Shown here in pieces: positions 3,836 through 33,712 of a DNA stretch of 64,000 bases. A model generated the notes under the pieces. The model was given only the letters and a program-made list of their open reading frames with translations. It was not told the DNA's origin and did no database searches. Positions within the stretch are counted from its first letter, which is position 1. Every line of letters starts with the position of its first letter. This DNA is from Dudresnaya verticillata (taxonomy: Eukaryota). The DNA lies in contig OZ374563.1 in NCBI GenBank assembly GCA_977862235.1, forward strand, positions 868,001 through 932,000, in the 5' to 3' direction. The position numbers were made by a program, and so were the translations under genes.

Positions 3836-3837
3836 GA

Positions 3838-4195: not shown

Positions 4196-4833
4196 TGTAG
4201 TAGAATGGCTTTCAAGCAAGAGTAGACGGCCACACAGCACGACAGTTGTCCTGAAAGCGTGATCCCACTCGCGTGGTTGGTAGCTCCAAATGGGGTGGTA
4301 GAGACTTGAGAGGGCGGCAAGCCCTGCAAAAGAGGGGAAAAGGGAAGGCGAACCGTACTGCTTAGAGCAGTCGTCGTAGGTAGCACGGCTTGTAAACGCC
4401 TAACGGGGGTTGTAGCGGTGATACCGTGAGAGTCCAACAAAGGGGAAAAACCCAAGGCATACACCGCTGCTCGTTTAGTGCGGGGCCCCTGCTACTCAGG
4501 GGCCTAATAAATACGGCGGGAGCCGAAAAGGTACTACCCGCTCAGTTAGAGCTATAATGCTAACAGTGAGCTAATACTGTACACTAACAGTTACACTAGC
4601 GATTAAAAATAGGAATGAGCGGTCATACCGCTTCCGTACGTACGGCGCCATTGTAAGGCGCCACGCCCAAAATAGACGTGCCATCATGGCGCGTATCCAC
4701 CACTCAGCGCGCATAGTGCTCACGTAGTTAATTGTCCAATGGCGAGCAGCCATCTCACTCCTGTATCCCACGCCTTACAGGCGTCGCGTGTACACGTGGC
4801 TCCTTACAGCGCCCCAGCGCTCGTTATACCACA
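4196..4833 (-). repeat. Element B 3' LTR (638 bp)
   Basis: Direct repeat of 16844-17482; only one G indel and one near-terminal substitution seen. Confidence 0.93.
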
Positions 4834-4850
4834 CGGCCCCCTTCTTAAAA
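4834..4850 (-). promoter_or_regulatory. Polypurine tract of B (TTTTAAGAAGGGGGCCG on -)
   Basis: Purine run abutting the 3' LTR; an 8-bp-stem hairpin ACTGAGCG-ACCG-CGCTCAGT lies next to it (4850-4869). Confidence 0.75.
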
Positions 4851-5525
4851 CTGAGCGACCGCGCTCAGTAAGGAGCTGTACAGCGATGCTGTTTCCAAAG
4901 GCTATAGCCGTTTTGAGATTGAGATTTGAGATCCTGTGGTTCGTTCATTGGCCCAGCGTGAACGTTTTGCAAACGCCTCCCAGCGCCCCGTCTCGACGAG
5001 GCGGCAGGTCACTGTGTGCACGGCTTGAGCCGTCGGCGTCGGCTCGACCGGTATCGATTGCGCGAAACGCCAGACGGGCGCGCGGTTATTTTAACGCCGG
5101 CTTGCAGCCGTCTTCTCGCTTTCGGTGCCCACACCCCTCAACAGCCGTCGCTTTTCACCTGACCGCCCTGCTCTCCGCTCATCGCATCCGCCCCGCTTGA
5201 GCGGTTCCATCATCCACACTGCGGTTCTCACCATTGCACACCGGCGCCCAGCGTTGAGCCCTACGACCTCCGCCGTGCGCGCCCCGCTCTTCCCGGCTCA
5301 CAGCCGTTTCCTCAGGTCGTGCTCGCCAGTCGTTGGACTTGGCTCTGGAGCCGACTTTCAGGCAGGAGAACGTTTGCCGCGCCGTAGAAGTAATCAGGTA
5401 GCGCTCACTACCCCTCGGGGTCAGTTCTGGAGCCGACGCGAATCAGGAGAAAGGTCTCCGAACCTTAGAAGACGCGATTCGGAAACGACTTCCAAGCCGT
5501 TGACAGTCTTGCGCACTATATCGAG

Positions 5526-7811
5526 ATGGCGCCGCAACACTTGGCGTATGGAGCCGCCGGCTCTAGTGCGAATGTCTTGGGACATGAGGTGGACGCGGCT
5601 GGTGTGCCGATAGCGATCTCCCACAGCCGCGACTGGCTCCTGCGTACCTACCTCACACATCTGAAGATGCGGGCGGGAGCTAGTCGCGAGGAGGTGCGTC
5701 GAATCGGTGGTCGGACGGCTCAGAGTCGTGTGTGGAATCGCCATATGCGTACCCGCGTGGGTATTCTGACTGGCACAAACCGGTTCTTACCGCGTCTTGC
5801 TGGTGATGGCGAGTCCCTTCAGTGGGACCTGGCCTATGTGCGCTTCAAGCACGAGATTGCTTGGAGCAACAACGTGACTCGGAAGTTGACTTCCCAAGCC
5901 GAGATGCTCTATGAGGTCCACCAGAGCGGAGACTGGGACTTACGGCTGGTCATGCATGAGCTTCCACTCATTCGACAAGGTAGGGATAACTTCCCGTACA
6001 CTATGGCCCGCGTTGTGCGGTGGGATGAGTCATCCAACTTAAAATATGCCTTGGATAACCCACAGACGGCTATGCCGTTGGAACATTCCCGCTTCGAGCG
6101 GAAGCAACGCCACAAGACCGGGTGTCTCATCCCGTGTCACTGTCAAGAGGTGACGGCTATCAAGCCGCAGTGCTACAATGGAAAATATCCGCAAGTCCCT
6201 GATGACCATAAGAACTTTGAGGTCTCGCACTCCATGCCGGTCGGGACCCCGACGATTATCGCCTATCTAGGTCTCGAGATGATGGCGAAAGCCATGGATG
6301 ACAGTGTGCTTTGGAGCATTTACCGCCACGAGTGGGTAGTACTCGTCGTGCAGACCCTGGTATATGAGGCCCGGCGAGGCCTGTTGTACTTCATCGGTCA
6401 ACCGTTGCGAACAGCTATTCGGGCTTTAAACCCTAAGGAGCTTACCGCGGATGCCGATGACGCTAAGGACTTGGAAGCCCTGCTGATCTTCGTCGAGCGC
6501 ATTCGCTGGGGCGAGATTACCAAGCGTAATAGACATCTCCCAGAGAACACTGGCAATTGTACGCCGGTTTACAACCGTGGCGACTGGGTCGATTTTGATC
6601 CGCAGAAGTGGCATCCAATGCTGCCTGAATATCTCATACAGCCGGAGCCATCCGAGGCGAACCCGCTCATTCTGGACGAGGGTACTCGTATGCCCGGAGT
6701 GACAGCCGGTTGGGTTTGTTCCCGTTGGCGTGAACCGGGTCCCGAGACCCCTGAGCAAGTTCCCGTCTTCGACGAGACTGTTGGTGGACAGCCACAGGGA
6801 CCTCATACCCCACCTGCCATGGGCTATTCGAAAGCCGACCACGTTATAAGAGACGTCTTCAATAGGCGTGGTTTAGCCATCCGGCTTGCTTGCCAGTGGG
6901 AAATGCGTCATCTCAACGTACATAGTCTGGCAGACTGGGTGGAGGAGGTCATGGTGGACTATGAGTCCAATTGGTTGCAGATGCCGGGTCCGGCCGACGA
7001 GATAGAGCGTTTGCGGGCTCACTTCGCCGCCCTTCCTCCTCTGTCGGGCCGTTCGCGAGTAGGGGACGTGAAGCCGCGTCGCGGCATTGGCCACGCTGGT
7101 GCGTCTGGCATCAAGCAAGAGTCGACTGGAGTCGAAGATGGTGATCCTCGTGCCCACATGAGCGAAAACCCCGCAGCGATTCCGCGTGAGGAGTCGTCCG
7201 CCACCGCCGTGCAGACCACATCTACAGCTGTTAAGTCTGTTACCACGCCTTCGGTGGCGGTCGGCTCAGCTTCTACTGCGATAGCAACAGTCGGGGCTCC
7301 GACCCTTGCGGCACCAACCACGGGTTTACCCGACTTTGCCCCCGTGGGCGAGTTCCTCGGGGCAGACTTTCCTCGCCGTGGCTCTCAAGCCACGAGGGAA
7401 GTGTCGACCAGGGTCGCTGCAGTCGTACCTGTGTCACAGGACAAGGAAACTGCGGGCTCAAAGCTCGATTTCAATGTCCAGGAGGGCGCTTCTCAAGCGA
7501 AGAAGGCCGTTCCGCCTTCAGACGACGTAGTCGTTAAGACCGAATTAATCATTAAGGAAGAGGACGAGGTGGACACCGCTAGGGGTGAATCCCCGAGAGC
7601 CAGCTTTGATGATATGGAGATCGACGCCATAACGACTCGCAGTCGTGGAAGCGAGCTTGACGCAGGCGCCCAGCGTGGTCGTACCTCGCGTCCGGTGGGG
7701 CGCGGCCGTCGCACGGTGCGTGAAGTCCGCCGCGTCGTTATTTCCCATTCGGCTCCTCAGCCGGATCCGCCCCTTGGGGAGGATGAGGTCATTGACCTTT
7801 TGTCAGACTGA
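5526..7811 (+). CDS. Element B antisense accessory ORF, 761 aa, unknown function: conserved globular N-half plus disordered acidic tail
   Basis: Uninterrupted 2.3-kb ORF between pol and 3' LTR, opposite strand to pol; aligns by eye with the antisense ORF of C (YLG.E.M, W...[ED]WV, I.W, GDWV.[FY][DN]P). Confidence 0.85.
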   Translation: MAPQHLAYGAAGSSANVLGHEVDAAGVPIAISHSRDWLLRTYLTHLKMRAGASREEVRRIGGRTAQSRVWNRHMRTRVGILTGTNRFLPRLAGDGESLQWDLAYVRFKHEIAWSNNVTRKLTSQAEMLYEVHQSGDWDLRLVMHELPLIRQGRDNFPYTMARVVRWDESSNLKYALDNPQTAMPLEHSRFERKQRHKTGCLIPCHCQEVTAIKPQCYNGKYPQVPDDHKNFEVSHSMPVGTPTIIAYLGLEMMAKAMDDSVLWSIYRHEWVVLVVQTLVYEARRGLLYFIGQPLRTAIRALNPKELTADADDAKDLEALLIFVERIRWGEITKRNRHLPENTGNCTPVYNRGDWVDFDPQKWHPMLPEYLIQPEPSEANPLILDEGTRMPGVTAGWVCSRWREPGPETPEQVPVFDETVGGQPQGPHTPPAMGYSKADHVIRDVFNRRGLAIRLACQWEMRHLNVHSLADWVEEVMVDYESNWLQMPGPADEIERLRAHFAALPPLSGRSRVGDVKPRRGIGHAGASGIKQESTGVEDGDPRAHMSENPAAIPREESSATAVQTTSTAVKSVTTPSVAVGSASTAIATVGAPTLAAPTTGLPDFAPVGEFLGADFPRRGSQATREVSTRVAAVVPVSQDKETAGSKLDFNVQEGASQAKKAVPPSDDVVVKTELIIKEEDEVDTARGESPRASFDDMEIDAITTRSRGSELDAGAQRGRTSRPVGRGRRTVREVRRVVISHSAPQPDPPLGEDEVIDLLSD

Positions 7812-8720
7812 GTCTCCGATGGCTCAAGCCAATTAGTCATCACCGTTTCCCTCATCTCCTGTCTGGATGCCTTTGTACTTCGCCTTGCTTGGGCAAGAGC
7901 GGCTTAACCGCTAAAGTAAAGTATTGATGTTACTGTATCCCCTTCGGCTGGAAGCCGATTCACTCTATGTAAGGGCGTCTGTGGCTGCGTTTCCTTCATT
8001 GAGGGCGTGGGTCGCTGGCGAATATTCCAGCCTCCATCAGCATCTTGGCGCAAAGGTGTATACCACTCCTTGGAGGAGTTGGGCATCGAAGCTCCTTGCT
8101 ACTGCCGAGGCATCATGGTGCCATGGCGCACGCGCCGTGGCGTAGAAAACCAAGACGAGTTTGATTCGTGGTTCAATCCGCCTCCAACCGCAAGTTGACC
8201 AGTCGAGACGGCGCCAGCAATGGTCAACTCCCCTCTACAGTAGAACTTCTGTGATACTGTAGAGGCGAGCGTTTTTGGCGCCAGTTTGCGTGGTTGTCTG
8301 CCAGACAAATTTTGATTCGTGGATGGATCGCACAAACGAAATCTAATTCGCTGATGATTACGCCTCCCTACCCCTTTGGGGGGGGGGCGGGGAGCCGTTC
8401 GGTACATGGTAACCGATTTGGCTATAGTACGCCAGGCATTTGACTTCAGTCAACGGGTAAGGTTTCTCGTAGGCCTTCCACTGAGTGGTCGTCCCGCGAC
8501 TGTGGTATAGGAGATATGTCGATAAAGCCATTGGTAATAACCATCACGAAAAAGCATCTCGCTATACCTAGCACATATTGTAGTTGTGACCGCTCAGCGT
8601 CTAGGCGCTTGCCAAATCAATCTTGCTTTAGCAACGGTAGTTACTACGATCGTAGTCTACGCCATCGTCCTCTTGAGGTCCTGAGCCTTATAATCATCTT
8701 CCAACCTTGAGTTTCCAACT

Positions 8721-8928
8721 CATCTATCCAAATGTTTCCAAACATCTATCCAAACCTGGAGCTTCTGCTCCTCTATCCAGTTTGAATTTCCGGTTCATCT
8801 ATTCCCGCATCTATCCAAGGTTTCCAACCTGCTTTGCATCTATCCATTTTCTTGAACTTCCAGTTCAGCTGTTCCACATCTATCCAAACATCTATCCAAG
8901 GTTTCCAACCTTCTTTTTTATCTATACA
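8721..8928. repeat. Degenerate short-repeat array of CATCTATCCA (about 9 copies) interleaved with TTTCCAA
   Basis: Copies at about 8721, 8743, 8770, 8797, 8808, 8837, 8877, 8889, 8919. Confidence 0.8.
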
Positions 8929-9146
8929 TTTCCAATTTTCCAACGGGGTCCATATCCTTCAGATAAACTGATATACATGGGCATAGCCATTGCTATCCCG
9001 TGGATCGGTTCGGCGATCCGCAATCGGACGTTATCTTCGTTTTCCTTATAAGGCTTCTGCCTAGCGTAGAATTACACACGTAAGCGTGCCGCGAGGTAGC
9101 ACCGAATCATGACGCTTGAGTTACCATCAGATTGGTCGACCAGTGG

Positions 9147-12100
9147 TTATTCCGAGAAGGGAATCCTCTTCGAACGGTGATACCGTTTGATTAGATTCGC
9201 TGGGAGGTGTTCTCGCGGTTCCCAGGTGTCCTGTGATGCAGGGCACTGGTACCAGCGCACCTTGCACATTTTCGACTCGGAGTCGTAGTCGACCAATTTG
9301 TCATAAACATGCTCCCGTGGCGGGGCTTTCTTGAAGCGTGAAAACTTACGACGCGGGGTCGTCCCATCTGCATTAGGGGAGATCAGCTCTCCATGGGCTT
9401 GAGGAGAGCTTAGGCCCTGTGCGACCGTTGGCCCGGCATCATTCAGGCCAGGCGGTATGATAACCTCATCGCGAGGGGGCACGGTGGTAGAAACCGGGCC
9501 AGCACCACTATCGATATCCTCGATCACTTCCTGCGGAGGGGCGACAGTCTGCGCATTTGCGTATTCCGCGCCCGCTTCCAGCGGCTCCTCTCTTATAATG
9601 TTCGGCGATGGTGCGGCGCCTGGAGCATTGGTGTCTATTGACTCAAGAGTTGGTCCTGCTAGTTCCACATATCCAGGAGTAGCCTCCACGATGGGTGGGG
9701 CTAGCCCTAGAGCTCCAAGTTCTTCTTCCGGTGACGGGGCCAGAGTGACACGGTCCAGAGAGACTGATTCCCTTTCGCCATTCCTTTCCAACACGACAGT
9801 GTGTGTTCCTCTCTCGAGGATCTTGTATGGGCCAAGAGCCTTTGGAAACAACTTTCCTTCCCGTGCCACGCCTTTGGCATCTTTCATTTTCGTCTCTCTC
9901 GAGGAATACCCAGTTACCCGGGCCTAACTTCTGATTAGTCAGACGCATACGATTGTTGAAGTTGACTTCATATCGCTGTTGTGCCATGCGTAGACGTGGT
10001 AACGCTGTGTCCATCAGCTTCTCGAGTCGCGCGGTCAGCCGCTTCTTGACATTAACCGCTGGCACGTTCGCAACGTCTACCGTCTCTGCTTTCTCCATTA
10101 GGAGTGAAGTCGGCGGGTTGGATAGAACCAAGTCAACGGGAGCAAGGCCCGTCGCACGATGAACGGTCGTGTTGTATGCGTACTTCAGAGCAGACGTGAA
10201 TTCATACCAATCTTTTTGGTCTTCAGCAATGAAATGCCTCAGCCCTGCCAACAAGGTACGATTAAACCTTTCGGTTTTTCCGTTCGTCTGCGGATGATAA
10301 GTCGATGTAAACAGATACCGAATCTTGAGAATGCCGCAGACGGCTATGAAGAACTTAGACGCAAACTGCGAACCATTGTCCGACAGGACATAACGGGGAG
10401 GCCCGTAGGTGTATATCCAATGTTCACAGAACGCTTTCGCCACAGTATAAGCCGTTACCGTTTTCAATGGTATCGCTCGAGTGAGCTTTGAGAAGCGGTC
10501 CGTCATCACGAGCAGATATTCGTTGCCCTTGCTCGATCGAGGTAGCGGTCCTAGGATATCAATCCCCACGAACTCCAACGGCATAGTAGCCGGAAACAAC
10601 TTCATATGAGAAGCGTGTTGTCGTAGTTGAACACGTTCCTGTGCACATTTCACACAGTTTCGAACTGTTGCATATACTGCGAGAGCCATGCCAGGCCAGA
10701 ATACTTGTCGGCGCAAGTTATGATACATCCTTGTCCCACCGGGGTGACCGGCCATCTCCGGGTAGTGCGCGAGATGTAGGACCCGTTCTTGAAGGACTCT
10801 ATGTATCACTACCTGTAGTGTCTTGTCTATATAAGACCGTCGGACTATCAATCCTCGTTCATCTTCCAGATAGCAGCCTGGCCTTCCGGATTCAATGGCG
10901 AGTTTGATACCCATATAGAATTGATCGGTTCGCTGAGAGCGAAGAATTTCCTCCACGGTGAGCAGAGAAAGACTCTTTTCGTCCACTTCTTTCTCAGCCA
11001 CGTTGGCTATTAGTTGTTCATCCTCGAGTAACAACTCGACAGAGTCGTCCTCGGGTTCCACCTCCCAGACCTCCAAAGGTCGGGACGGGGTATCCGTTCG
11101 CGAATCTCTTCCATCCGAAAGGTCACGAAGGTCAGACCGATCACTGTCAGCGATTACAAAGCAAGGAATCTCCAGATCTGGTTCCCAGCTGGTAAAACCA
11201 TAAGTAGGTAATCGAGAGACGGCATCAGCTATCTGATTCTTCTTTCCCTTACGGTATTGAACCGTGAAGTCGTATTCGAGGAGTCGCAAGCGCCAACGTG
11301 CTAGTCGTCCGGATGCATCCGTCATACTCATCATCCATTTGAGCGCCTGATGGTCGGTGTACAAGTCAAAATGCGACCTTCCTAAATATGGTCTAAGCAT
11401 TTGCGTCGCCCAGACCACCGCGAGGCATTCCTTCTCGCCGACGGAGTAATCCCGTTCCGCCTGAGTCAAGCCTCGGCTCCAAAACCCGATAGGGTGGCGT
11501 GTTCCGTCTGGTTCCATTTGCATAAGGGCACACCCTATCTGATAGTCACAAGCGTCGGTGTCCACCGATAGAGGTCTATCTTCTTTCGGAAGTCGGAGAA
11601 TCGGTGGCGCTGTTAGCGCCTTTTTCAGTAACTCGAACGCTTCGCGCTGCTTTTCATCAAACGGAGGTAGTTCGAATCCCACATCCTTCTGAAGAAGTCT
11701 ATTAAGCGGTGATGCAACTCGTGCGAAGTTCGGCACAAAGCGTCTGTAGACGTTACACAACCCGATGAACGATTGTAGTTGAGTCTGAGTCTTAGGTTCT
11801 TTGAAGCCTTCGATGGCTTGGGTATTCTTCGTAGCTACTTCCAGTAGTCCAGGCCTGATCACGTGGCCAAGGTAATCCACACTCTTCGTGAAGAAGTTGC
11901 ACTTCTTGAGCTTGAGCGATACTCCCGCTTCTTTCAATACTGAGAGTATTTCTTGAACATGACCTAAGTGTTCGTCGACACTCTTTGAGAAGATTATGAT
12001 ATCATCCAAGTAGACGAGACAGGATTTCCATCGGTAACCCGATAATAGGATATCAACGGTTCTCTGAAAGGTCGCCAGTGCGTTGCACAATCCGAATGGC

Positions 12101-13730
12101 ATTCGGCAGAACTGGAAACAAAACGCATGACAGGTAAACGCTGTTTTGGCCTTATCTTCCGCTGCTACGGGTATTTGCCAGTAGCCCGAATTACAATTGA
12201 GAGTTGTAAAGTACTGGGCGTCGCCCAATGAGTCTAAGCACTCATCCATTCGAGGTAGAGGATATGAATCCTTAATTTTGATCGCATTCAGTTTCCTGTA
12301 ATCGACATAGAAACGGAGAGATCCATCTGGCTTCTTAACCAGTACTACTGGGCCTGCAAACTCCGAGCGCGCAGGCTCTATGACTCCTTCCTTGAGCATC
12401 TTATCGACTTCGTCTTGTTCCGCTTGTCGCGCTTTCGGTCCTGACCGATATGGTTGGGCAAATACGGGTTTGGAACCGTCAGTAAGCTCGATGCGATGCT
12501 CTGTGACTTTGATGGTCCCGAGCTTTCCGCTCCACATGTCAGCGAACGGTCATAGCATTTTGCGGACGCGACGTCTGTCAGACGCAGAGAGGTGTTCCAG
12601 TGTCAGGTCGTCGACTGTTAGGTTTTCGGTAGCGGTTTTAACGCCTGGCTTCGAGTCGGCAACGCCGAGAGCAGCAGCTAGTCCTGCCCCCTACATCGAA
12701 GGATGTTTCTGACTTAGGACTCGAGTCTTTCGACGTGGGGACTGGGGTGTCAGGGACATTGTCGATGGAAACCGAATAGACCGGCGTGGCCGTAGGAGCT
12801 GGGATGGCTCGGCCAATTACTGGTTCTTGTTGAGTCGCTGTAAGCGGGATGAAAAGTTGGCGATCTTTTCGCGGAAAAGAACGTTCTCTTGAAGCGTGAC
12901 GATTCCGTTCGTGACGACCACTTGTTGACGGTCATACAGCCGTTGAAAAGAATCCAGGAAGTGAATTCCTTTAGCCGCACACGTGACGGCGACCCAGGTT
13001 TCCGAACCGGGTTTCAAATTAGTAGTTAGGGCAACTCTGACGAGTCGCGAGTTAGGTAGAGGAGGTACCTCCATAGGTTCTCCAGAGCTTTCAGCTCGCG
13101 GGATTCCGCAGCGGCGGCGTAGGATCGGGTGCACCGAGCCGTCTCGAAGGACGACGTGTTGCTTGCGCACTCGTAACCCGTCGACGTGGGTATCGATATA
13201 GGTACAACCCAAAATCATATCCACGGCTAAAGCCTTGACTACGAAGAACGGTTGACGAACCGTATAGGTCCCAATCCTGACGACCAGGGAGATCATCCCC
13301 AAGTTAGTTAGTCGGTGGCTCGATGCTGAGGTTAAGTTAACGATCGAACGGTTCGATGAAATCTTCTTTCTGTCTTCCAAAGATAGCACATCTGCTCTGA
13401 TGAGGTTAGGGCCCGCGCCCGTGTCCAGTACTGAGAGGACTTGAGTTAAATGTTCAACAGAGGTCCCAACGGACGCGACAACTTTATAGTTGTATCGCGA
13501 GAGAGAGCAGATTGGGTCCTTAACATACTCATGATACTTAGACCCGGGGGTAAGCCCACGGGGCGTGCTAATATCTTCTTTGGAAGAAGAGGCGGAAGTT
13601 TCGGTGACACCGATCGGTCGGTTGAGGAAGCGCTTAGGAAGTCACATTCCTCCGAACGATCGGGGGGTTCCGATATGACTGATACGACCGGAGTCGCCCA
13701 GTAAACCGAAACCGGTTCCCCCCTAGCTAG
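9147..13730 (-). pseudogene. pol: Element B pol: protease-RT-RNase H-integrase-chromodomain, with frameshifts
   Basis: VLDTGAGPN protease (~13430); RT YLDD; RNase H DTDACDY...EKECLAVVW; integrase HHCC and DILGP...DRFSK...SDNGSQF...TERFNRT; chromodomain VYDKLVDY..CKVRWY...DTWEP in ORF 9887-9147. First RT catalytic Asp reads N (TTLNCNSG vs TTLDCNSG in C). Confidence 0.92.
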
Positions 13731-16440: not shown

Positions 16441-16824
16441 CTTCTTGGAATTTTCGGCTCTGCAGACGAGGCAACGGGGACTTCTTCCCAGGCTTCTCGA
16501 CGGTTCGGAACCGTAGCGTTACACGTGTTTTCTCAGGATGCACGGAAAACCTGTTGAAGTAGCTCAACCCGGGCGTCAGTCCGACGTTGAAAGGTACTTC
16601 TATGGACGGTCAAAAACCGTAAACGTAGTTTGCTTGCTCACAAGATTTGACGTAACTCCGGAGCTTGAAATAAAGCGTAGAAACCGTCGACAATTAGACG
16701 ACTAGGGTTTTACCCTTCGAGAGGAAGAATTCTTGAAACTTCAACGGACTAACCGTCCTGTCTTGAGCGTCTTGATTCGACCCGTCGGGGGTAAGGTAGT
16801 AAAAGGGTCAACCCAGAGAACTTG

Positions 16825-16842: not shown

Positions 16843-16843
16843 C

Positions 16844-20331: not shown

Positions 20332-20336
20332 CTTTG

Positions 20337-21232
20337 TGTGGTGCAAGGGGAGGCGAGCCCTTTTTCGCTGAAAGCGGTCGGACTAAATACGTCGACCGAC
20401 GGAGAAACCGCCACCGGCGCTCACCACCGCCGTTGGCGCGCGAACACGTCATCAACGGCTTGCTGAGGCGCGCGCGCGCACTGCGCGCCGCGCGCCACGC
20501 GGGCACCGTACAGTGCTGGGCCAACCTGGTGCCCCGGGGCACTGTAGCACGGATCCGGATGCGATCCGGATCCGGCATCCAGATTGGCTATCTGGATCGC
20601 CTAAGCTGTAAGCTATGCGTCTGTAAGGCTGCGGGTATCAGCATTGCTGGCCCGATCCGGATGGGATCAGGATCGGACAAGTACCAGATTAGATCTAAGG
20701 CGCACGCTCTACAGTGCGCGCGCATGCGCGGCTGTAAGACAAACGCGTCCACGTGTACGTGTAAGCACCCACACAGGGGATTGTGCGGCGGTCTATCAGA
20801 CGCGCGGCTGCATGCGACGCGTGATCTGTCAGACGCGCCTCGGGACGACACGTGTCCCGAGTTCCCGCGCTACACGCACGCCGCCGCGCCGCCGTACTAT
20901 ACTTAGGTAAGCCGTCCCAGACGTCACAGTAAACGCCCGGGCAAGCCGGCCTTGGTCCAGACTTCCCCGTTCCGCATGCGCGCATTCTACCGCTGCCTAC
21001 GGCTAAGCGTCTACCTCCCGTGCTTCCACGTCTACCATCGTCCTTGACGTGTTCCCTTTCTCTTTCCCTTTTCCTTCCTTTCCGCCTCGGGCGTTTACAG
21101 TCCGCCCAAAGCGTGCCCCTTTGCTCTACCACCAAGTCGCCCACGGCGGGTCTACCTACCGCCGAGGGCGCAGCTACCCACCGAGCCCCGAACTGCTCGG
21201 CGGTCCATCGTCTACAGACGTTTTGCACCACA
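20337..21232 (+). repeat. Element C 5' LTR
   Basis: Three substitutions seen versus 32817-33712. Confidence 0.96.
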
Positions 21233-21234
21233 TC

Positions 21235-21252
21235 TGGTCTCCCGACCTAGAA
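21235..21252 (+). promoter_or_regulatory. Primer-binding site of C (TGGTCTCCCGACCTAGAA)
   Basis: 2 nt after the LTR end; identical in A and B. Confidence 0.85.
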
Positions 21253-21358
21253 TTGTGCTACGTTTCAACGAGTTTCTCCGTCGCGCGACGTCCGACTCTC
21301 CGTCTCTGACGTTTGTCGCTAATCGTCCACGACGTTCAAGCAACTCTACGATTGTATC

Positions 21359-23922: not shown

Positions 23923-26900
23923 CTCGGGCACCAACTCCTGACACTGGGGTGTCGCACCGCGAAGAGAGGCCTAGGCCTCGGGTGCTAACACGGAAGGAGG
24001 GCCCGAAGTTAGTTTCAGATGACGCCAACGGGCGGATAGAGTCGTCACAGACGTCATTAAAACGCCCATGGCGAAGGTACCAGCCCCCCGGGCGCAAGGG
24101 CAGTTGTTCGTGATGGCCAAGAGGAATTATAAGGTGTACGCCGATTTGGGCGCAACCGTTAGTACCTTGGCACGTAAACGCACTGTCCTCGACACGGGGG
24201 CTGGTCCGAATTTCATTCGCATTGAAGACATTCCGCTGGAAGCGCGATCGCGCATCGTGACAAAGAGCCTCCCCGTCATAGCCGACGCCAACAATAAGGC
24301 GATCCAGACAAGAGGCACCATCGACCTGATCGTTCGTCTAGGACGGAGAGTCGTCAAGTTGGAACTGATCGTTTGCGAACGACTCGCTGCGCCGGTGATA
24401 CTCGGCTGCGACTTTTGCGACCGGTTCGTCGAAACAATATATCCGCGAAGTCGCGAGGTTGAATTGGATGACGGGACTCGTGTCCCTATAACGCGCCGCC
24501 CGCTGCGCCGACCCCCGTCTTATCCTCCGTTACCAACGGAACAGGAATACGGCAACGCCGAAGGGAGGACGTCGCCCAAGATCCGAGTCGCCGAGCGCGC
24601 GATCATCCCGCCTAAGGCGCAGCAATGGGTATCGGTGACCACCGAGCGCGCCGGTATCATCACAACTCAACCGTTCGGAACGCTGTACGACAAACAAGGT
24701 CTGGCCGTTACGAACGGGATTGCTCAAGTGGAGCCGCTAAAAGCGTTTCGCATTCTGGTTGCCAACTTCTCTCCCCGCCCGCAGGCGCTGGCCAAGGGCC
24801 AAGTCATCGCCACGGCGTTACCACATCCGACAGCAGTGTTCCCCAGTCACGTAATTCTAGCCGATGTTTTGGGCCTCACGGAGGAACAAGCCGAGGAAGA
24901 GAAGGCAAACCAAGATTTCCGTTTTCAAACGAATGATAACACTGCGGCACAGCCGGATACTTTCACGAAGTCTATCGAGGCAACCACTGCCAAACCTCCG
25001 TCAGTAGACGATTTGGACCTGGGACATCTCCCCGCCGAGCATCAAGGTCGGCTCAAGGAGATGTTACGCAAGTATTCGTCTATGTGGGACGGTTCGTTGG
25101 GAGAAATCTCAACCACGGAGCACTACATCGACTTGCTTCCCAGCTCTAGACCGATATCGTCCCCGCCCTACCGAGCGGGGCCGAAGCAGAGACAACTCGC
25201 TCAAGCGGAAGTGGACCGCATGCTGCGTCAAGGGGTTACCGAACCCGCACAATCGCCTTGGGCGTCACCAGTGGTCTTCGCCCCCAAGAAGGACGGGACC
25301 CTCCGCTTTTGCGTAGACTAACGTCGTTTAAACGCAGTAACCATACGGGACACGTACCCGCTGCCGCGTATCGACGAATGCATCGACAGCCTAGGGGAAG
25401 CAAACGTCTTCACCACCCTAGACTGTAACAGTGGGTACTGGCAGGTGCCGATCAATCCGCGAGACCGCGATAAGACTGCGTTCACGTGCAACGCCGGACT
25501 GTTCCGCTATAAGCGTATGCCATTCGGCCTCACGAACGCGCCCGCTATGTTTCAACGAACGTTGGAAATACTGCTCGCTGGTTACAAATAGCGTTCGTGC
25601 CTCGTCTACCTCGATGACGTAATAATCTTCTCCAGCGACATCGACAGTCACTTCCGTCATGTTGACGAGATCCTTTCGACATTGCACCGCGCCGGGGTGA
25701 CTCTGAAGTTGACAAAGTGTGACTTCTTCACCCCGACCGTCAACTACTTAGGACACGTCATACGTCCAGGACGATTAGAAGTTGACCGAACTGTCACTGC
25801 CGCGCTACGCGAATCCAAGCATCCACGGGATCAGAAGGAGCTACGGAGTTTCCTCGGTCTTTGTAACGTCTACAGACGGTTCGTCTCGCGATACGCGCAT
25901 GTCGCTGAACCCCTCAACAAGTTGCTGAGGAAGGAACAGGACTTCCGGTTACAACCGTTTGATGAGACACAAGCCAAAGCGTTCAGTACGCTCGTCGAGG
26001 CCGTGACTCATCCGCCTATACTGGCGCTACCACAGCAGGGTCTCCCCTATTCCGTCGACTGTGACGCCAGCGAGTATCAGGTCGGCTGCGCTCTCTTTCA
26101 AACGCAGCCCGACGGGGAACGTAAGCCACTCGGCTTCTTGTCCCGCTCGCTCACCGCTCCAGAGCGTAACTACTCGGTCTCCGAAAAGGAGTGCCTCGCA
26201 GTAGTATGGTCCGTCATGACGCTGAGACCTTACCTCCAGATGGAGTCGTTCACAATCCATACGGACCATTCGTCATTGAGGTGGCTGATGGAAATCAGCG
26301 ACCCCTCCGGACGGTTAATGCGGTGGCGCCTTCGCCTTTCCGAGTTCGACTTTGTCGTGAAGTACAAAAAGGGTACTTGAATACTCAGGCAGATTCCCTT
26401 TCGCGTCTACAGACGAAGGGAGAAACCGTCGAGCCTATTGACGATGATATACCGTGCTATCACGGAAGCTACGCCGAAGACGGCCATCAAACGTCACAAG
26501 ACGATCTGTCAGACGCCGAAGGCGAGGTCGACTTCGCCGAACGAGAGTTCGAAGCGTTCGACCAAGTGTTGATCAACAACACGCCACCGGCAGATGAGGT
26601 ACTCCTTCGTCAAGTGACGCATGAAGAGTTGGTACACGCCCAAGGCGACGATAGTTACTGTAACGATGTCAGGAAACGTCTTGATGACGGGATCACCTTA
26701 CCGTTCGCAACGGATGAACAGGGCCTGTTGGTCCGAACAGTGGAAGCCCGTCCGCAAGTGGTCGTACCCTCCGCGTTACGCGCTCGCTTACTCCACCTCC
26801 GGCACCACGCCAAGTTGGCAGGGCACCCAGGGGGGCGTAGGTTGTATCATACGCTTCGACGCGAATACTATTGGCCATCGATGCCAGTGGACTGCTATGC

Positions 26901-28638
26901 GACCGTCCGCAACTGCGTAACTTGCGCTAAGAATCGCGTATTGCTGCGAAAGAACACCAAGCAATTGAAGTTGTTCCCGGCAACCGAGCCTCTCGAATTC
27001 GTGTCGATCGACATCCTGGGCGAACTCATACGCACGAAGCGAGGAAACAAGTTCCTACTCGTCATTGTGGACCGCTTCTCGAAGCTGGTCCGGACGGTCC
27101 CACTGCGTAGTATTACGACATTGGAAATCGCTAAGGCGTTTGTACGACATTGGGTCTTCGTGTACGGTCCTCCCAAGAAACTGTTGTCCGACAACGGACC
27201 ACAGTTCGTGGCTAAGCTGTTTCAGGATATCTGTCGTTTTTTGGGGGTGGAGAACCTCTTCACCACGACGTACCATCCGCAATGAAATGGCCAGGTAGAA
27301 CGATTCAATCGAACTATCCTGGCCTCGCTGCGTCACTACGTTGCGGATCATCCGAGAGACTGGGACCTGTTCACGGATGCCTTGAAGTTCGCATACAACA
27401 CACAGTTGCATTCGTCAACGCATCTCGCTCCGTTTGAATTGGTGCTGTCTAAGCCACCACGGCCACTGTCGCTCGAAGCGGAACCGTCGCTCGAAAGCGT
27501 ACCCACCGCGGGGCAATGCTACACCAAGTGGCGAACCTGATTGGCCGCACTGATGGGAACCGCTAAAGCGTCATTAGAGAAAACTCAAGCACGTTACAAA
27601 CGAAACTTCGATACCCGATTAAGGAAATCGAAGGAATCCATCGCCATAGGCGACTTAGTATTCGTACGTAAGGAATACTTCGCCCGAGGCGGGAGCACGG
27701 ATCGCGCAGAGCGTAAGCACAAACTGGCGCCAGTGGCGGACGGACCGTATCGGGTAACTCACGTTGATAACGAGACAGTAACCGTCGACAAGGGACGTGA
27801 TGAGCGGGAACGTTTGTCCCGAGACCGCGTGGTCTGGGCGCCGACCCCACCGGGTCAGGCGGCCCCTCCAATCGTCGCACCCCCAGGTCCGCCTGAGGAG
27901 CAGGACGCAGTCGCCCCCACGTCACAAGACGAAGGGACGACTACCCCAAGCACGCCACCAGCGGAACCGGAGGGGAACGCAGAGACTTCGCATACTGCGA
28001 GAGATCCGCAAGAGCGTACGACCACAGCGTCACGCAGTCGTGGGTTGGCAGAGCTTTCGCCCTTCGCCGCCGATCCCGACAACCGCGCTTCGCAATCCGT
28101 CTCCAACGACGACAATACCCCAGGGGTTCGCACCCGTTTGGAACACGTCGCTACGGCACTGCCGAATGATAACAATGAATCAGCTGAAAGCGCGTCCGAT
28201 AACGACGACGTTAACCGTGCAAGCACGAAGCAAGGCGCTGCAAGCGATGGACTCGTCTCAAGACGCAACAACCCACTTACCGCTGATCGAGCGTCCGAGG
28301 CCCAAGGCCAACGCCTTCGGCGATCAACTCGTCGAGTACGCTTCGCCGAACCGGAACAAACGCCCATAACGCAACGAGACGAACCGCCAAAGGCGCTGCA
28401 AGGACACCGGTCCAAGCCGAACGCTGTGAGCGGGAAAGAATACGTTATCGAACGCATCGAGTCGCACGCCTACGCGGATGATGGTGAGATGCTCTACAGC
28501 GTTAAGTGGTTTGGATACCCCGCTTCAGCGAACACCTGGGAGCCAGTCTCCAGTTTGCCGCGCTCCCACGTCACACGATACCACCGTCGCAAACGTATGC
28601 AGCTGCCGCCAAACGTCGACGACGCGCAACGCGGCTAA
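23919..28638 (+). pseudogene. pol: Element C pol: protease-RT-RNase H-integrase-chromodomain, with multiple stops
   Basis: DTGAG protease; LDCNSGYWQ and YLDD RT; DCDASEY RNase H; HHCC plus DILG/DRFSK/SDNGPQF integrase; chromodomain EYVIERIESH...YSVKWFGYPASANTWEP. Stops at 25319, 25589, 27283, 27538; frameshifts near 24087 and 26375. Confidence 0.93.
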
Positions 28639-29910
28639 CCCTAGTCCGGAAATACCGCTGGAAACGAATGGACGGACGATCGAGCCCACGTGCTCGCCCT
28701 ACGATCGCCAACGGCGCGGAAGCTCAACCCATGCCCTGTGGACGCGGTCGCCGGAGCGACAACGCCAACCACGCGTGCACGCCATGGACGAACGCGGACG
28801 CAAGTCGTTGCGTCATAGACAGCCTCTCGCACGCCACCTCGCAGCAGCCCCCATACGGAACCTCTGGATGGGTGCGCTGTTGACAGTGGATCCAGATCGC
28901 AAATCGAGATCCGCCGCTGGCGCCCCTCGGGTAATGAGAGGCAGTAGCGGGTCAAATTTTAATTTCCAAACACGGCAGCTCGATATCGCCCCCCCAACGC
29001 AATAATGCCAAGTGGCTGAGCAGGTGCTACGAGCCCCAGCGACGACAGGCGCAAAGTGGCAGCGCACGACAACCGTCTCCGACGTCGAGACGTGCCTCGC
29101 CCCACGGCCAAGTCCCAGGGACCGCCACCCTGCCGGCCACGGTCTCGCGCGCAAGACCCGTCGAACGTCTCCGACGTAACTCGCCGAGAAGGGGCGCACC
29201 GACAAACCCACCCCCGAAGGGGGGGGGAAGGTGGTCGAAGACGCAGTTGCTGCGGGTTCCGTGCACGAAGCGCCAACAAATCGCCAACGACTCCGCCGCT
29301 GCCTGCAGCCGCCGCGCAGTCGCGCGAGCGCGACAAACAACTCTACCCTACCCACAACGAGGAACGTCGAAGACGAAAGGGGCGGCAACGCCGAAGCGTC
29401 AAAACCTACCTCAGCGCCTTCGCGACCGTCGTCGAGGACGCCAACAAACCACGCCCAAGGCGCTGTGCAACACATGAACTACAAAAACGCTAAGTAAGCG
29501 GAAATACGCCAACGCCGCGCGCCTGACGCGCGTGAAACACGAAGAACAACGCTACTACAGCGGACCTTACTGGGCAAACAAAGCCAAGTGCCAACGCACG
29601 GCTAAGGCCAATGGCACCAAAACGCCAACGCTACTGTAGCGGGCAACCAAGAACACGACGCAAAGTCGAAAGTGGATCACAAGGTTACACCCTAAGGCAA
29701 ACGCGAAACGCGACACACAAAGACGCTGACAATGGCCGAAGTTTACTGGGCTAAAAACAAATGGGGACAACCCCTCGCCCTAGCGATCGACCACTACGGC
29801 TACATTAATCGTCAAAGACGAAGGGGAATACCCCGCTCAGCGGTCCCGCAAGGGAGCAGAAGGGCAACACAATACGCACCTCGCGTCCGCTATCCGTTCC
29901 TGAAACGACA

Positions 29911-32214
29911 TCAAGACTCCTTCGTCGCAGACGAATTGGCTGGCACGTCCCCAGCGCCTTCGGCGGACTCACGCAACGCCTCTTCGTAGAGGTCGTCCTC
30001 CGTCGTTGACGGCACACTCACGGCAGGAGCCGGGGCGGACCGCAAAGGCCTTGCCACCGCAACTGCCGGAGTGGCTGCAACAGGCGCCGCAGGCGAAGTG
30101 GGGGACTCATCAACCGCCTTGGGCGTCGTCGCTACAATATCCGCCAAAGGCGATGAAGCAATAACACCCGCCACAGGCGCAGAGCTCAAACCATCGTTCG
30201 CCTTAGGCGCGGACACAGCCCCATCCGCTTTAAGCGTAGTCAACGACTCGTCTACCGCCTTTGGCGTCAGTTCAGAAACCGCCTTGATTGGCGTCGCTTC
30301 TTCACTCGCCTTCGGCGCTGTTAACCCAACACCCGTCAATGACGCAGGAGCCCCTGGCCCCTTTGGTACCGTCAACGACGCTATAGCGGCATTCGCTTCG
30401 CTCGCCACAGGCGGTACAGTCATACTCACGTCTTGAGAAGCCGGACCATTCGCCTTAGGCGACGAAGGCTTCTCTGCCACACCGTCCTTCGATGCAGAAC
30501 CTACGACATTAGTCGATTTCGGCGCGGGCCCACCCTGAGGTGGGACCGCAGCCGACAAAGCTTGGCTCATCCACTCAGTGGGTGAGCCGCTCAGACCGCT
30601 AGTAGCGACGCCTGACGCCTGCAATAATGCAAGCACGGTGCGGCGCTGCTCTTCGGTCCAAACCGGCACCGAAGCTGGACCCCCAGAACCGTCTGCGACG
30701 TTTGATGCTTCGCCTTGAGGCATTACGATCGGCGGAGCCGGCTCAAGTATTGGCGTCGCCATAACGGCATCGCCATCATCGTCAGCGACGGGAGCCGCAA
30801 GGTCCAGAGGAGCAACAGATGGCAGGCCAGCTGGCACTCCACCGCCACCGACAGCGCCTCCGGGCAAAGCCGAAGACGCGGGCGCAGGCTCGGCAGTCGA
30901 CTCAACCGCCATAGGCGTAGCAATGTCCGTCCCAGACGGGTTCTCCGGTCCGCCATCGGCGTTAAACGCATCCTCCTCGGCCATTAAGGCGCTCAAATGC
31001 GGAGGAAAATCACCGACAAAGTCGCAGCTCTTACGCAAACCACGCGGGTGATTACCCGGGGTGAAGCGGTCCGTTTTGCGATGGCGCTCCGCAACGTTCT
31101 TCGTCGTACGACGCTTAGTCCACGGGTTATAATGGACCCAATCGCCACAGGCGGAGTGAGTCCGACTCATCGCGAATCGCGGACGGTTCGCCTTACGGCG
31201 GTTGTTCGCATACGGCACCATTGCCGGGTCGTTCCAGTCGATCTCATCCGCCACAGCGCGCAGGTTCCAGAACTCCTCGGCGTTCCGGGACCCGCCAAAT
31301 ATTTCGACTAAGTCGAGGCTGCCCAGCTGCGCCACCACACGCGGGGGTAAGTGGTACATACGGAAGGTGTCATACACCTCCCATAACCACGCATACGCCA
31401 CATTGGCGACCCAGTCCGTGTAAAACACGATCCAGTATCTGGAATATGGGTCGGTCATCAGCTCGGAACCGAGATACCTGACACACGGAGGAAGCTCTAC
31501 GGAGAAACCCTCGCATATCTTAAACTCGCGCCACACTGGCGGTACCTTCACAAAACAAAACGGCAACTTACTACGCTCAATGCGGTCAACCTGCATGTCC
31601 TGGTAAGGCACGAATGCGCCCTTTCGGCGACGCATCTCGCACTCCCACCGGATACAACGCTCCCAAAAGAACGTACCCGTACGATGCAAGTAACGAAAAT
31701 CCGCTTTCAAGCGTACGCCTAAGAGGTAGGCCTCTCACAACACACGAGGCTCAATCGACACGCTCACATGTTTGAGCGACAGCGTCCCAAGACGAGCACC
31801 ATATTCGGCTTCGCCGGCTGTGCGGTATTGTCCCGCATCATAATTGAACAGGGGCGGCGTTAACGTCGACCCCGGATAACGCGTGAAGCGACAATACACG
31901 TCTGAGACGAACTGCGGGTGGACGTCCGCACGCGACTGTCCCGCTCGCACCCAAAGCCATTCCGCAGGAACGGCACAGCGTAACTTCCATTCCAACGTCC
32001 AGACGACGCCGAGGCGCAAGCCCCCCGGCAAGAAACCGCTAGTAGCGTAATGAGCAACCAATTCTTCCTCGCGCAAGGCCTCCTGGTCGAACCAGGGGGC
32101 CCGCGCGAAGAAGTGCGCGTGATCGCGAGGGTTCTTTCCGACGAAGTCGACCGGCGAAGCGTACACCGGCGCAGCCGAAGGTGCTGCCACCTGCATGCCA
32201 TTGAACATCGGCAT
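29911..32214 (-). pseudogene. Element C antisense accessory ORF (~767 codons, one in-frame TGA at 31737-31735); homologue of B 5526-7811
   Basis: ORFs 32214-31735 and 31710-29911 share a frame and are separated by one TGA (probably from TGG); Trp/Tyr-rich N-half aligns with B; Ala/Pro/Ser-rich tail. Confidence 0.82.
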
Positions 32215-32216
32215 GA

Positions 32217-32600
32217 CGTCAACGACGAGGATGTGTTAACGCCAAAGGCGACGGTTGTACAAACGTCACAGACGACTCGTGTCCTGCGCCACTGGCGAAA
32301 GCTTCAAGAAGCGTGCGTCGAAGACGATTACTGTTGTAACGCCTTAGGCGAGGAAACGAAACCCACGTCGACGACGTTCATCTGCTGCGTCAATGGCGAT
32401 GCCACAAGCACACGACGTCGAAGACGACTACTGTTGCGACGCCTTAGGCGAGAGAAGGAAACCCGCGTCAACGACGTTCGACTGCTGCGCCAATGGCGAT
32501 GCCGGAGGCAAACGACGTCGATGACGATTAAGTTGCAACGCCCCAGGCAAGGGATATACGATAGACGTCAACGACGGAGCTCGTTGCCACAGGCGGTAAT
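32217..32600. repeat. ~100-bp period tandem repeat (about 4 degenerate units) just upstream of the antisense ORF start
   Basis: Units begin CGTC(G/A)A.GACGA at 32217, 32316, 32416, 32516; each holds about two CGCC-N3-GGCG palindromes or one-mismatch variants. Confidence 0.8.
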
Positions 32601-32816
32601 GTCGGGGCAGAGTACGCAGCCGCACGAGTACGCAAACGCAACAAGAGCGGAGTTCTTACGGCACAGCCGAGGTCGCAGTCGCACGCGGCGCACCAATACA
32701 ATACGCGAAGGCGCGGGGACTCGCTCGCAAGGCGCGGAAGTCGGCAGGGACGCAACGGCAGAACGCACGGCAGCAGGTTGAGGGTCGGGTCGTGTTCGCG
32801 TTTTGGAGGGGGATCG

Positions 32817-33712
32817 TGTGGTGCAAGGGGAGGCGAGCCCTTTTTCGCTGAAAGCGGTCGGACTAAATACGTCGACCGACGGAGAAACCGCCACCGGCGC
32901 TCACCACCGCCGTTGGCGCGCGAACACGTCATCAACGGCTTGCTGAGGCGCGCGCGCGCACTGCGCGCCGCGCGCCACGCGGGCACCGTACAGTGCTGGG
33001 CCAACCTGGCGCCCCGGGGCACTGTAGCACGGATCCGGATGCGATCTGGATCCGGCATCCAGATTGGCTATCTGGATCGCCTAAGCTGTAAGCTATGCGT
33101 CTGTAAGGCTGCGGGTATCAGCATTGCTGGCCCGATCCGGATGGGATCAGGATCGGACAAGTACCAGATTAGATCTAAGGCGCACGCTCTACAGTGCGCG
33201 CGCATGCGCGGCTGTAAGACAAACGCGTCCACGTGTACGTGTAAGCACCCACACAGGGGATTGTGCGGCGGTCTATCAGACGCGCGGCTGCATGCGACGC
33301 GTGATCTGTCAGACGCGCCTCGGGACGACACGTGTCCCGAGTTCCCGCGCTACACGCACGCCGCCGCGCCGCCGTACTATACTTAGGTAAGCCGTCCCAG
33401 ACGTCACAGTAAACGCCCGGACAAGCCGGCCTTGGTCCAGACTTCCCCGTTCCGCATGCGCGCATTCTACCGCTGCCTACGGCTAAGCGTCTACCTCCCG
33501 TGCTTCCACGTCTACCATCGTCCTTGACGTGTTCCCTTTCTCTTTCCCTTTTCCTTCCTTTCCGCCTCGGGCGTTTACAGTCCGCCCAAAGCGTGCCCCT
33601 TTGCTCTACCACCAAGTCGCCCACGGCGGGTCTACCTACCGCCGAGGGCGCAGCTACCCACCGAGCCCCGAACTGCTCGGCGGTCCATCGTCTACAGACG
33701 TTTTGCACCACA
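32817..33712 (+). repeat. Element C 3' LTR
   Basis: Direct repeat of 20337-21232, preceded by PPT GGAGGGGGA. Confidence 0.96.

What the first reader, a model, noticed from the sequence alone, without database searches (positions are those of the whole stretch)
4196..33712. Candidate new system: gypsy elements pairing a conserved antisense protein with a family-specific palindromic motif spread over the element
Seen: B and C have dissimilar LTRs and divergent gag/pol, yet both carry a ~760-codon antisense ORF at the same position with a shared unknown domain. Each family is also strewn with its own palindrome: CGCC-N3-GGCG in A/C and GG(C/T)T-N2-4-A(G/A)CC in B, both concentrated around the antisense ORF and its leader. 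Known: Arabidopsis VANDAL DNA transposons encode VANC proteins that bind family-specific short motifs amplified in their own element and block silencing. Inference: the antisense protein may be a dimeric, sequence-specific factor recognising its own family (anti-silencing, self-regulation or RNA selection), co-evolving with the motif. I know of no such description for an LTR retrotransposon but could not search.
Basis: partly seen in the sequence, partly recalled or inferred. Interest (0 to 1): 0.9.

Follow-up and report, generated by a model that had tools for sequence, protein, structure and literature searches.

The report
Hairpin-coated red-algal retrotransposons with antisense gene
A lineage of jumping genes, here in what is likely a red seaweed, carries an extra backwards-facing gene of an unnamed protein family and is covered end to end, even inside its genes, with tiny perfect hairpin-forming sequences whose shape differs between families, likely a self-tag read by one of the element's own proteins.

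Summary
B and C are chromodomain-bearing Ty3/gypsy elements of a probable florideophyte red alga. Each has an antisense ORF (761 and 767 codons; C has one stop) from an unnamed family with 139 relatives.

The "motifs" are not fixed words. In C, 79 of 82 CG[CT]C-N3-G[AG]CG sites are perfectly self-complementary. Both elements carry about 20 excess perfect micro-hairpins per kb (stem 4-6, loop 3-6), spread evenly from LTR to LTR through synonymous sites, with little or no excess of G·T or mismatched stems.

The coat is a lineage trait: 14 of 20 relatives in the RT tree have it, against 0 of 5 other gypsy and 0 of 8 copia contigs. Its geometry is family-tuned: C favours CG-based 4+3+4 hairpins 13-fold and avoids a fifth pair.

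The link to the antisense protein is unproven. L001 and L003 keep the ORF (dN/dS 0.20) but have no hairpins or motif. Best reading: a weakly selected structural self-tag read by an element protein (0.45). Main rival: fold-back copying by the element's RT (0.3). The scan's index held no earlier report of this.

The parts
4196..17482 (-). Element B, Ty3/gypsy LTR retrotransposon, inserted into the 5' LTR of element A; hairpin-coated throughout (about 19 excess hairpins/kb, mostly stems 4-6, loops 3-5, A-T pair favoured at the stem base)
   Evidence: LTRs 99.7% identical; TG..CA ends and 5-nt target duplication with one mismatch; RT/RH/IN; hairpins
4196..4833 (-). B 3' LTR
16844..17482 (-). B 5' LTR, followed by a primer-binding site identical to C's
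5526..7811 (+). B antisense ORF, 761 aa, intact: folded N-terminal region (about residues 17-403), disordered-looking tail
6057..6650 (+). Conserved core domain of the antisense protein in B (about 200 aa)
   Evidence: profile hit; AlphaFold2 pLDDT 91.8, pTM 0.88 for 232 aa
9147..16518 (-). B gag-pol with C-terminal chromodomain (about 9174-9272); several stops and frameshifts
   Evidence: Pfam; translations
20337..33712 (+). Element C, Ty3/gypsy LTR retrotransposon; hairpin-coated throughout (about 20 excess hairpins/kb; CG-based 4-bp stem, 3-nt loop 138 vs 10.8 expected; fifth pair avoided)
   Evidence: LTRs 99.7% identical; exact 5-nt target duplication; hairpins
20337..21232 (+). C 5' LTR
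32817..33712 (+). C 3' LTR
21323..28638 (+). C gag-pol with chromodomain (about 28441-28587); several stops and frameshifts
   Evidence: Pfam; translations
29911..32214 (-). C antisense ORF, 767 codons, one in-frame TGA at 31735-31737; core domain about 31083-31662; tail with degenerate 27-30-nt in-frame repeats, each holding a hairpin
32316..32542 (.). 2.3 copies of a 100-nt unit upstream of C's antisense ORF, rich in CG-based hairpins
1..4195 (-). Element A, partial copy of C's family (95% identical to C), same hairpin signature
17483..17975 (-). Remainder of A's 5' LTR, split off by the B insertion; hairpin-rich

Best explanation
These elements belong to a Ty3/gypsy lineage, likely of red algae, that carries an antisense accessory gene and, in most families, a coat of perfect micro-hairpin sequences from end to end, which likely serves as a family-tuned structural self-tag, kept by weak selection and likely read by one of the element's own proteins. 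Shown: the gene family, the coat, its strict Watson-Crick character, its even spread through synonymous sites, its restriction to this lineage, and family differences in stem length, loop length and the base pair at the foot of the stem. I put the antisense protein at about 0.4 of this model. It must have a role that does not need hairpins, because one subclade keeps it without them.
For: Reverse-complement pairs 2.6-2.7x in B and C, against direct 1.1-1.3x and mirror 0.9x. Synonymous-codon shuffles z 4.5-8.3 in 9 of 9 B and C ORFs, against -2.0 to 2.3 in 7 of 8 other window ORFs; the eighth (3.9) overlaps A's LTR. The excess ends at the element edges in the window and in L005. 13 of 13 lineage contigs of assembly G001 z 2.6-11.4, against 0 of 5 other gypsy and 0 of 8 copia contigs. 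The excess needs a loop of 3 or more and fades beyond gap 7-8. Similar density, 12-22 per kb, in the larger hairpin-rich elements. In C the 4+3+4 excess is 138 vs 10.8 for outer CG and at most about 3x, on small counts, for the other 15 dinucleotides. The next outer pair is complementary less often than chance: C 16 of 138 vs 34+-4.9 (12 of 111 vs 27.9 outside repeats), L008 5 of 80 vs 20.6, L010 18 of 119 vs 32.1. Copying would not predict that. Sister families share signatures (L008/L010 distance 0.25, L012/L013 0.27, the two smallest of 91 pairs). No compensatory double change among the A/C sites.
Against: Stem conservation between A and C is only suggestive once ascertainment is corrected: 9 of 52 CG sites differ vs 13.9+-3.0 (P 0.07), and 51 of 166 of all sites vs 47.7 (P 0.75). 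The P values were biased and are withdrawn. Hairpin positions are not shared between families beyond what the protein imposes. Signature distance does not follow RT distance overall (Mantel rho 0.15, P 0.18). Next-pair avoidance was not significant in 4 of 11 classes tried (L012 CT, L013 CT, L005 GG, B A), and the classes were chosen after seeing the enrichments. L005 and L007 have no base preference. 5 of 20 lineage members lack the coat and L011 is weak, so it is dispensable. Perfect-only excess (pooled 1.91x perfect; 0.96, 0.96, 0.98x for G·T, A·C, other) is the pattern that PMC6649704 reads as active conversion.
Confidence: 0.45

Rival explanations
1. Mutational coat: the lineage's reverse transcriptase or RNase H lets nascent or template DNA fold back and copy one arm onto the other, so perfect short inverted repeats build up wherever the protein code tolerates them. 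Family differences reflect enzyme quirks; the hairpins have no function and the antisense gene is unrelated.
For: Perfect stems only, no wobble, no strand asymmetry. Even spread and position turnover. Confined to sequence copied by these elements' RT. PMC6649704 (passages) argues the same for perfect coding palindromes in Nematomorpha mtDNA. PMC3820800 (abstract) shows RNA:DNA hybrids trigger quasi-palindrome mutations in yeast. The hairpin-free L001-L004 group is one clade, as a change of enzyme would give.
Against: Below-chance pairing of the next outer base in C, L008 and L010. 13-fold specificity for outer CG in C. 0 compensatory doubles in the coding A/C comparison where my rough estimate is 2-3, which is weak. 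No loop inversions by eye in the A/C alignment.
Confidence: 0.3
2. Host-side selection: small hairpins on both strands hide the element from a host defence (small-RNA pairing, sense-antisense duplex formation, single-strand deaminase or nuclease), with no element-encoded reader.
For: An element with an antisense gene would make both RNA strands, and only Watson-Crick stems form on both (inference). Both strands fold more stably than shuffles in B, C and L005. Spacing is slightly more regular than random in B (CV 0.71 vs 0.85+-0.05) and L007, less so in C and L005.
Against: Other gypsy and copia elements in the same window or assembly have no coat. Families in one assembly differ in signature. 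The coat covers gag-pol as densely as the antisense region. L001 and L003 have the antisense gene and no coat.
Confidence: 0.13
3. One reading: the antisense protein is a dimer binding a family-specific palindromic word in duplex DNA and lifts silencing, as VANC does.
For: C and B do have preferred stems (CGTC, CGCC, CGCT in C; GGCT, CGGT in B after correction for 256 4-mers). C amplifies them in tandem repeats near the antisense ORF. The protein evolves fast between sister families (pN 0.44 vs 0.16 in pol for L012/L013). Four relatives have coiled-coil-like segments and basic tails.
Against: Mixed half-sites are almost absent (3 of 82). No word in L005, L007, L001-L004. Signal inside coding DNA, whereas VANC motifs sit in non-coding tandem repeats (PMC5735166, passages). 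No CpG-transition excess.
Confidence: 0.05

Closest known systems
Antisense additional ORFs between pol and the 3' LTR (aORF-3R: maize Grande gene23, rice RIRE2, Silene Retand/TRP28, Botrytis Boty; PMC7264820, PMC11963269)
   Same: Same position and orientation, conserved across families, function unknown, family-specific tandem repeats nearby, proposed nuclear regulatory role.
   Different: Different protein family (no PF04195 or other Pfam match over cut-off in 88 members); chromodomain-bearing elements of a probable red alga, where Retand is non-chromovirus and angiosperm; an element-wide hairpin coat is not mentioned in the text I read.
VANDAL/VANC anti-silencing (PMC5735166)
   Same: Transposon accessory protein plus a family-differing cis signal amplified in the element.
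   Different: VANC binds fixed non-palindromic words (YAGTATTAY; AGTTGTCC/AGTTGTAC) in non-coding tandem repeats of Mu-like DNA transposons and removes DNA methylation. Here the signal is self-complementarity, spread through coding DNA, in an LTR element, and binding is untested.
Coding palindromes of Nematomorpha mitochondrial genes (PMC6649704)
   Same: Perfect inverted repeats inside conserved coding sequence, no excess of imperfect ones, gains and losses between lineages.
   Different: Those reach 284 bp in an organelle genome. These have 4-6-bp stems, about 20 excess per kb, are limited to one retroelement lineage, and have family-specific geometry.
Dispersed packaging stem-loops of ssRNA viruses, genome-scale ordered RNA structure, and cyanobacterial HIP1 (all recalled, no call)
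   Same: Many small dispersed structural or palindromic marks overlaid on coding sequence.
   Different: RNA stems normally accept G·U, which these mostly do not; HIP1 is one fixed word.

Membership tests
Chromodomain-bearing Ty3/gypsy LTR retrotransposon | LTRs with target duplication, PBS, PR-RT-RH-IN order | tested here: met
Chromodomain-bearing Ty3/gypsy LTR retrotransposon | Chromodomain at the integrase C-terminus | tested here: met
   PF00385 over cut-off 25.1: C 39.1 bits, B 26.3 bits
Chromodomain-bearing Ty3/gypsy LTR retrotransposon | RT placement inside a named chromovirus clade | not tested
   No named reference RTs were in my trees
aORF-3R class | Long antisense ORF between pol and the 3' LTR | tested here: met
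   B, C; same place in L001, L003, L005, L008, L013
aORF-3R class | Conserved across families under coding constraint | tested here: met
   139 relatives at E<=0.001; dN/dS 0.20 on 104 codons L001/L003, 0.32 and 0.41 in two nearly saturated pairs
aORF-3R class | Antisense transcription and nuclear localisation | not testable with these tools
   No expression data in hand; basic C-terminal tails in L008, L012, L013, L045 are only suggestive
Retand / TRP28 | Transposase_28 domain (PF04195) in the antisense ORF; no chromodomain | tested here: not met
   No PF04195 in 88 members or in B and C at E<=10; chromodomain present
VANDAL/VANC | Mu-like DNA transposon host element | tested here: not met
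   LTR retrotransposon
VANDAL/VANC | Fixed family-specific short DNA word | tested here: not met
   79 of 82 sites self-complementary; no word in 6 relatives examined
VANDAL/VANC | Target accumulated in non-coding tandem repeats | tested here: not met
   Even through coding DNA; only a minority of C's sites lie in repeats
VANDAL/VANC | VANC/MAIN-like fold | tested here: inconclusive
   Fold searches; see Tried and rejected
VANDAL/VANC | Binding to target and loss of DNA methylation | not testable with these tools
   Indirect only: no CpG-transition excess in 4 repeat pairs
Nematomorpha-type coding palindromes | Perfect inverted repeats in coding DNA without excess of imperfect ones | tested here: met
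   exception: B has a modest G·T excess at gaps 3-5 (176 vs 143), matched by A·C when gap 6 is added
Nematomorpha-type coding palindromes | Long arms (tens to hundreds of bp), mitochondrial | tested here: not met
   Stems of 7 or more are rare; nuclear retroelement

The most novel reading that the evidence does not exclude
A retrotransposon self-recognition system written in DNA shape: each family stamps its whole genome with micro-hairpins of its own geometry, and the antisense-encoded protein, a fast-evolving and probably nuclear protein of a new family, reads that geometry to license, protect or select its own family's nucleic acid. It would be a structure-coded counterpart of VANC. C, L008 and L013 fall in one antisense-protein clade (SH-aLRT 99.9) and share a 5'-C stem base (2.8-3.7x), unlike B; L005, in the same clade on a decayed sequence, does not, and distances are near saturation.
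Probability: 0.2. Interest if true: 0.92.

Novelty: new variant of a known kind. Interest (0 to 1): 0.78.

Why it matters
The function of antisense accessory genes in LTR retrotransposons is a stated open question (PMC7264820, PMC11963269). This lineage offers many intact, divergent proteins and a measurable cis trait that varies by family, including families without it, so protein-target co-evolution can be tested directly. Whichever mechanism wins, the result is odd. Either a whole retroelement lineage carries a second code of about 250 excess hairpins per genome on top of its proteins, or its reverse transcriptase is a palindrome-making mutator with family-specific geometry. I found neither in print in the searches I could run (open-access library only). 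The coat also gives a simple alignment-free marker of these elements and their edges.

Tried and rejected
No whole genome was held, so the genome-wide family test was replaced by public relatives.

Sequence searches for the antisense protein's identity: Pfam (only sub-threshold coiled-coil hints), PDB sequences (nothing better than E 1.5), word-indexed homolog search (none; 1 hit), exact look-up (0 of 4 in the collection), ESM Atlas (no usable hit, which shows neither absence nor novelty).

Fold searches with two confident models: Foldseek PDB and viral, no match at E<=0.001; VIA-align against 48,161 chains, best Z 2.6 (rmsd 4.8, 51 aligned) and 2.3 (rmsd 6.8, 103 aligned). This does not prove a new fold.

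Sequencing runs: none was listed for 28000-33000. Viral contigs: 4 scans, no relatives. First genome-contig scan: none. Rfam: no match at gathering score.

Rejected readings: a single degenerate protein site (mixed half-sites absent); low-complexity or codon artefact (mirror and direct controls, synonymous shuffles; the 1.5-1.6x 'complement' control in B and C is probably an offset by-product of the palindromes, not tested); ordinary RNA structure (no G·U excess); symmetric CpG deamination as the source of the CGCC/CGTC pair (intermediates absent, no CpG-transition excess); position-conserved RNA elements. My first test of stem conservation was biased by defining sites in one copy and is replaced. 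A within-lineage ORF-less control was not found: every member with enough downstream sequence has the ORF or a piece of it.

Scan index: nothing by place, sequence or hairpin words; two unrelated notes by words. Paper supplements were not consulted; subscription papers on red-algal genomes are outside the library and could bear on novelty.
Full report
**Anatomy.** The window is from a probable florideophyte red alga: the host TIP41 gene has best named hits in Gracilaria domingensis (57%) and Agarophyton chilense (55%), with unnamed hits up to 67%. It holds a nest of elements. A copia fragment carries element C (20337-33712, +) and element A (a partial copy of C's family, 95% identical). Element B (4196-17482, -) sits inside A's 5' LTR. 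B and C have LTR pairs 99.7% identical, the same primer-binding site, RT/RH/IN 55-61% identical in protein, and a C-terminal chromodomain. Both have stops and frameshifts in gag-pol.

**The antisense gene is real.** B's ORF is 761 aa and intact. C's is 767 codons with one stop upstream of the shared domain. phmmer with B's first 425 residues finds 139 representatives at E<=0.001 among 1.84 billion. The 10 clusters I looked up are unnamed metagenomic or run-assembly proteins. The family has a core of about 200 aa with conserved R, E, P, W and GD positions. AlphaFold2 gives pLDDT 84/pTM 0.85 for 425 aa and 91.8/0.88 for the core. A profile of the core hits antisense and downstream of the chromodomain in L001 (9e-17), L003 (8e-6), L005 (7e-5, decayed), L008 (3e-10) and L013 (2e-17). 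It also hits an ORF-only contig, L045. Reversed decoys reach at best 0.057, and 0 of 29 distant Ty3/gypsy loci are hit. L012, L010 and L002 show related C-terminal pieces, cut by the contig end or broken. dN/dS is 0.20 over 104 codons for L001/L003. This is a new family of a known kind, the antisense ORFs reviewed in PMC7264820 (parts 1-2 of 3 read) and PMC11963269 (passages).

**The motifs are the tip of a hairpin coat.** But 79 of 82 CG[CT]C-N3-G[AG]CG sites in C and 24 of 27 sites in B are perfectly self-complementary. Counting all 4-bp inverted pairs with gaps 3-5 gives 2.7x (B) and 2.6x (C) over local dinucleotide shuffles, against 1.1-1.3x for direct and 0.9x for mirror pairs. The excess starts at total span 10-11 (a loop of 3), fades beyond gap 7-8, is 1.85-3.15x in all 10 regions of B and C, and drops at the element edges. 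It survives synonymous-codon shuffling (z 4.5-8.3 in 9 of 9 B and C ORFs). It is absent from the duplicated repeat, the non-LTR RT, the copia fragment and host genes (highest 2.3, GluRS). Only perfect stems are enriched: pooled over 12 relatives' longest ORFs, perfect 1.91x, G·T 0.96x, A·C 0.96x, other 0.98x. B shows a modest G·T excess in one test that is matched by A·C in another.

**It is a lineage trait.** An integrase scan of metagenomes gave 7 loci. An RT scan of prokaryote genome bins gave 36 loci, presumably contaminating eukaryotic contigs; two of those bins were searched further. In an RT tree of 26 sequences, 20 form one lineage (bootstrap 100). 14 are hairpin-rich, L011 is weak, and L001-L004 (one clade) and the short decayed L006 have none. 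In assembly G001, 13 of 13 lineage contigs score z 2.6-11.4; three of these are integrase-only, assigned by identity, and may belong to the same elements as RT contigs. 0 of 5 other gypsy and 0 of 8 copia contigs exceed z 1.9. The 29 distant loci show no excess over pol in per-kb counts, though some LTR or 3' windows are raised; this was read by eye. L003 (no coat) and L005 (coat) come from the same assembly prefix, but whether they share a host is unknown.

**Geometry differs by family.** In C, 4+3+4 with outer CG is 138 vs 10.8 expected, and the next outer pair is complementary in 16 of 138 vs 34+-4.9. B has longer stems (5+4, 5+3, 6+3), A at the stem base 3.4x, and a weak GGCT/CGGT preference. 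L008/L010/L012/L013 have mainly 4+4 with C at the base 2.8-3.7x, and CTCC in L012 and L013. L005 and L007 have no preferred 4-mer. Next-pair avoidance was significant at P<0.05 in 7 of 11 post-hoc classes. Sister families are alike, but the overall Mantel test against RT distance is not significant (rho 0.15, P 0.18). Positions are not conserved between families.

**Link to the antisense protein.** For: all five hairpin-rich elements with a full downstream region (B, C, L005, L008, L013) have it. It diverges much faster than pol. C, L008 and L013 share a protein clade and a 5'-C stem base. Against: L001 and L003 carry it under coding constraint with no coat and no enriched word of any kind, although both copies are now damaged (a stop in L001; an early end close to pol in L003). 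L005 breaks the clade-signature match. C's place in the RT tree is unresolved (support 42-60), so Gag, RT or integrase fit equally well. No complete ORF-less lineage member was available.

**Mechanism.** Selection by a threshold reader and copy-conversion both predict perfect-only excess (inference; PMC6649704, passages, argues for conversion in the mitochondrial case; PMC3820800, abstract, ties such mutations to RNA:DNA hybrids). What tips me to a reader is the strict base-of-stem preference and the below-chance fifth pair, which copying should leave at or above chance. The direct test of stem conservation between A and C is only suggestive (9 of 52 vs 13.9+-3.0, P 0.07; the smaller P values were biased). 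I therefore give 0.45 to an element-encoded reader of a structural self-tag, 0.3 to RT-driven conversion, 0.13 to host-side evasion and 0.05 to a VANC-like duplex word. VANC binds fixed words in non-coding tandem repeats and removes methylation (PMC5735166, passages). Here CpG transitions are not raised in 4 repeat pairs, and the review passages I read say little on transposon methylation in red algae (PMC9861306). PMC13547354 and PMC12859917 (passages on VANC and anti-silencing) describe no LTR counterpart in the places shown.

**Verdict.** The antisense gene is a new family of a known class. The element-wide, family-tuned coat of perfect micro-hairpins is strongly supported, and I did not find it in the open-access searches. 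Interest 0.78; novel case probability 0.2, interest 0.92.

Noticed in passing
window 41054-47372, with related ORFs at 36981-38516, 50192-51727, 53935-55380: A non-LTR-type element with a 1002-aa RT ORF (42430-45438; C-terminal Cys/His knuckle and endonuclease-like motif by my recall, not tested) is followed by an extra sense region about 50% identical in stretches to a 511-aa ORF in the neighbouring duplicated repeat (tblastx). No Pfam match. Possibly another unnamed transposon accessory gene.
   Followed up: partly
window 34151-41035 and 47373-54246: 6.9-kb direct duplication, 99% identical, of unknown identity; hairpins at or below chance over much of it.
   Followed up: no
window 9147-16518 and 21323-28638: B and C both have several stops and frameshifts in gag-pol although their LTR pairs are 99.7% identical: either mobilised in trans while defective, or assembly errors.
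   Followed up: no
window 17483-17975 vs 20337-20890: A's LTR is only about 61% identical to C's in the U3-like part while their internal regions are 95% identical: fast turnover or an LTR swap.
   Followed up: partly
window 21235-21250, 16827-16842; L008 about 930; L003 and L005: B, C and L008 share one primer-binding site (tRNA-Tyr-like by recall, not tested); L003 and L005 share a different one, so primer choice does not follow the hairpin trait.
   Followed up: no
window 8711-8925: Degenerate short repeats (unit of 12 or 22 nt) in B's spacer between pol and the antisense ORF.
   Followed up: no
L008:10134-12692, L013:7213-10233, L045, L012:6695-8119: Antisense proteins of this subgroup add a coiled-coil-like segment after the core and end in Lys/Arg-rich tails resembling nuclear localisation signals; B and C lack an obvious coiled coil.
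   Followed up: partly
L005:1-1000: A separate hairpin-rich stretch (40 vs 15 per kb) outside the mapped element, perhaps the end of another family member.
   Followed up: no
G001 and G002: Two bacterial genome bins hold many eukaryotic gypsy and copia contigs, some with intact gag-pol and antisense ORFs: probable host contamination in a reference collection.
   Followed up: partly
window 55857-63999: Host genes in long uninterrupted frames: tRNA uracil-5 methyltransferase, TIP41, glutamyl-tRNA synthetase, and an 898-aa ORF without Pfam match.
   Followed up: no
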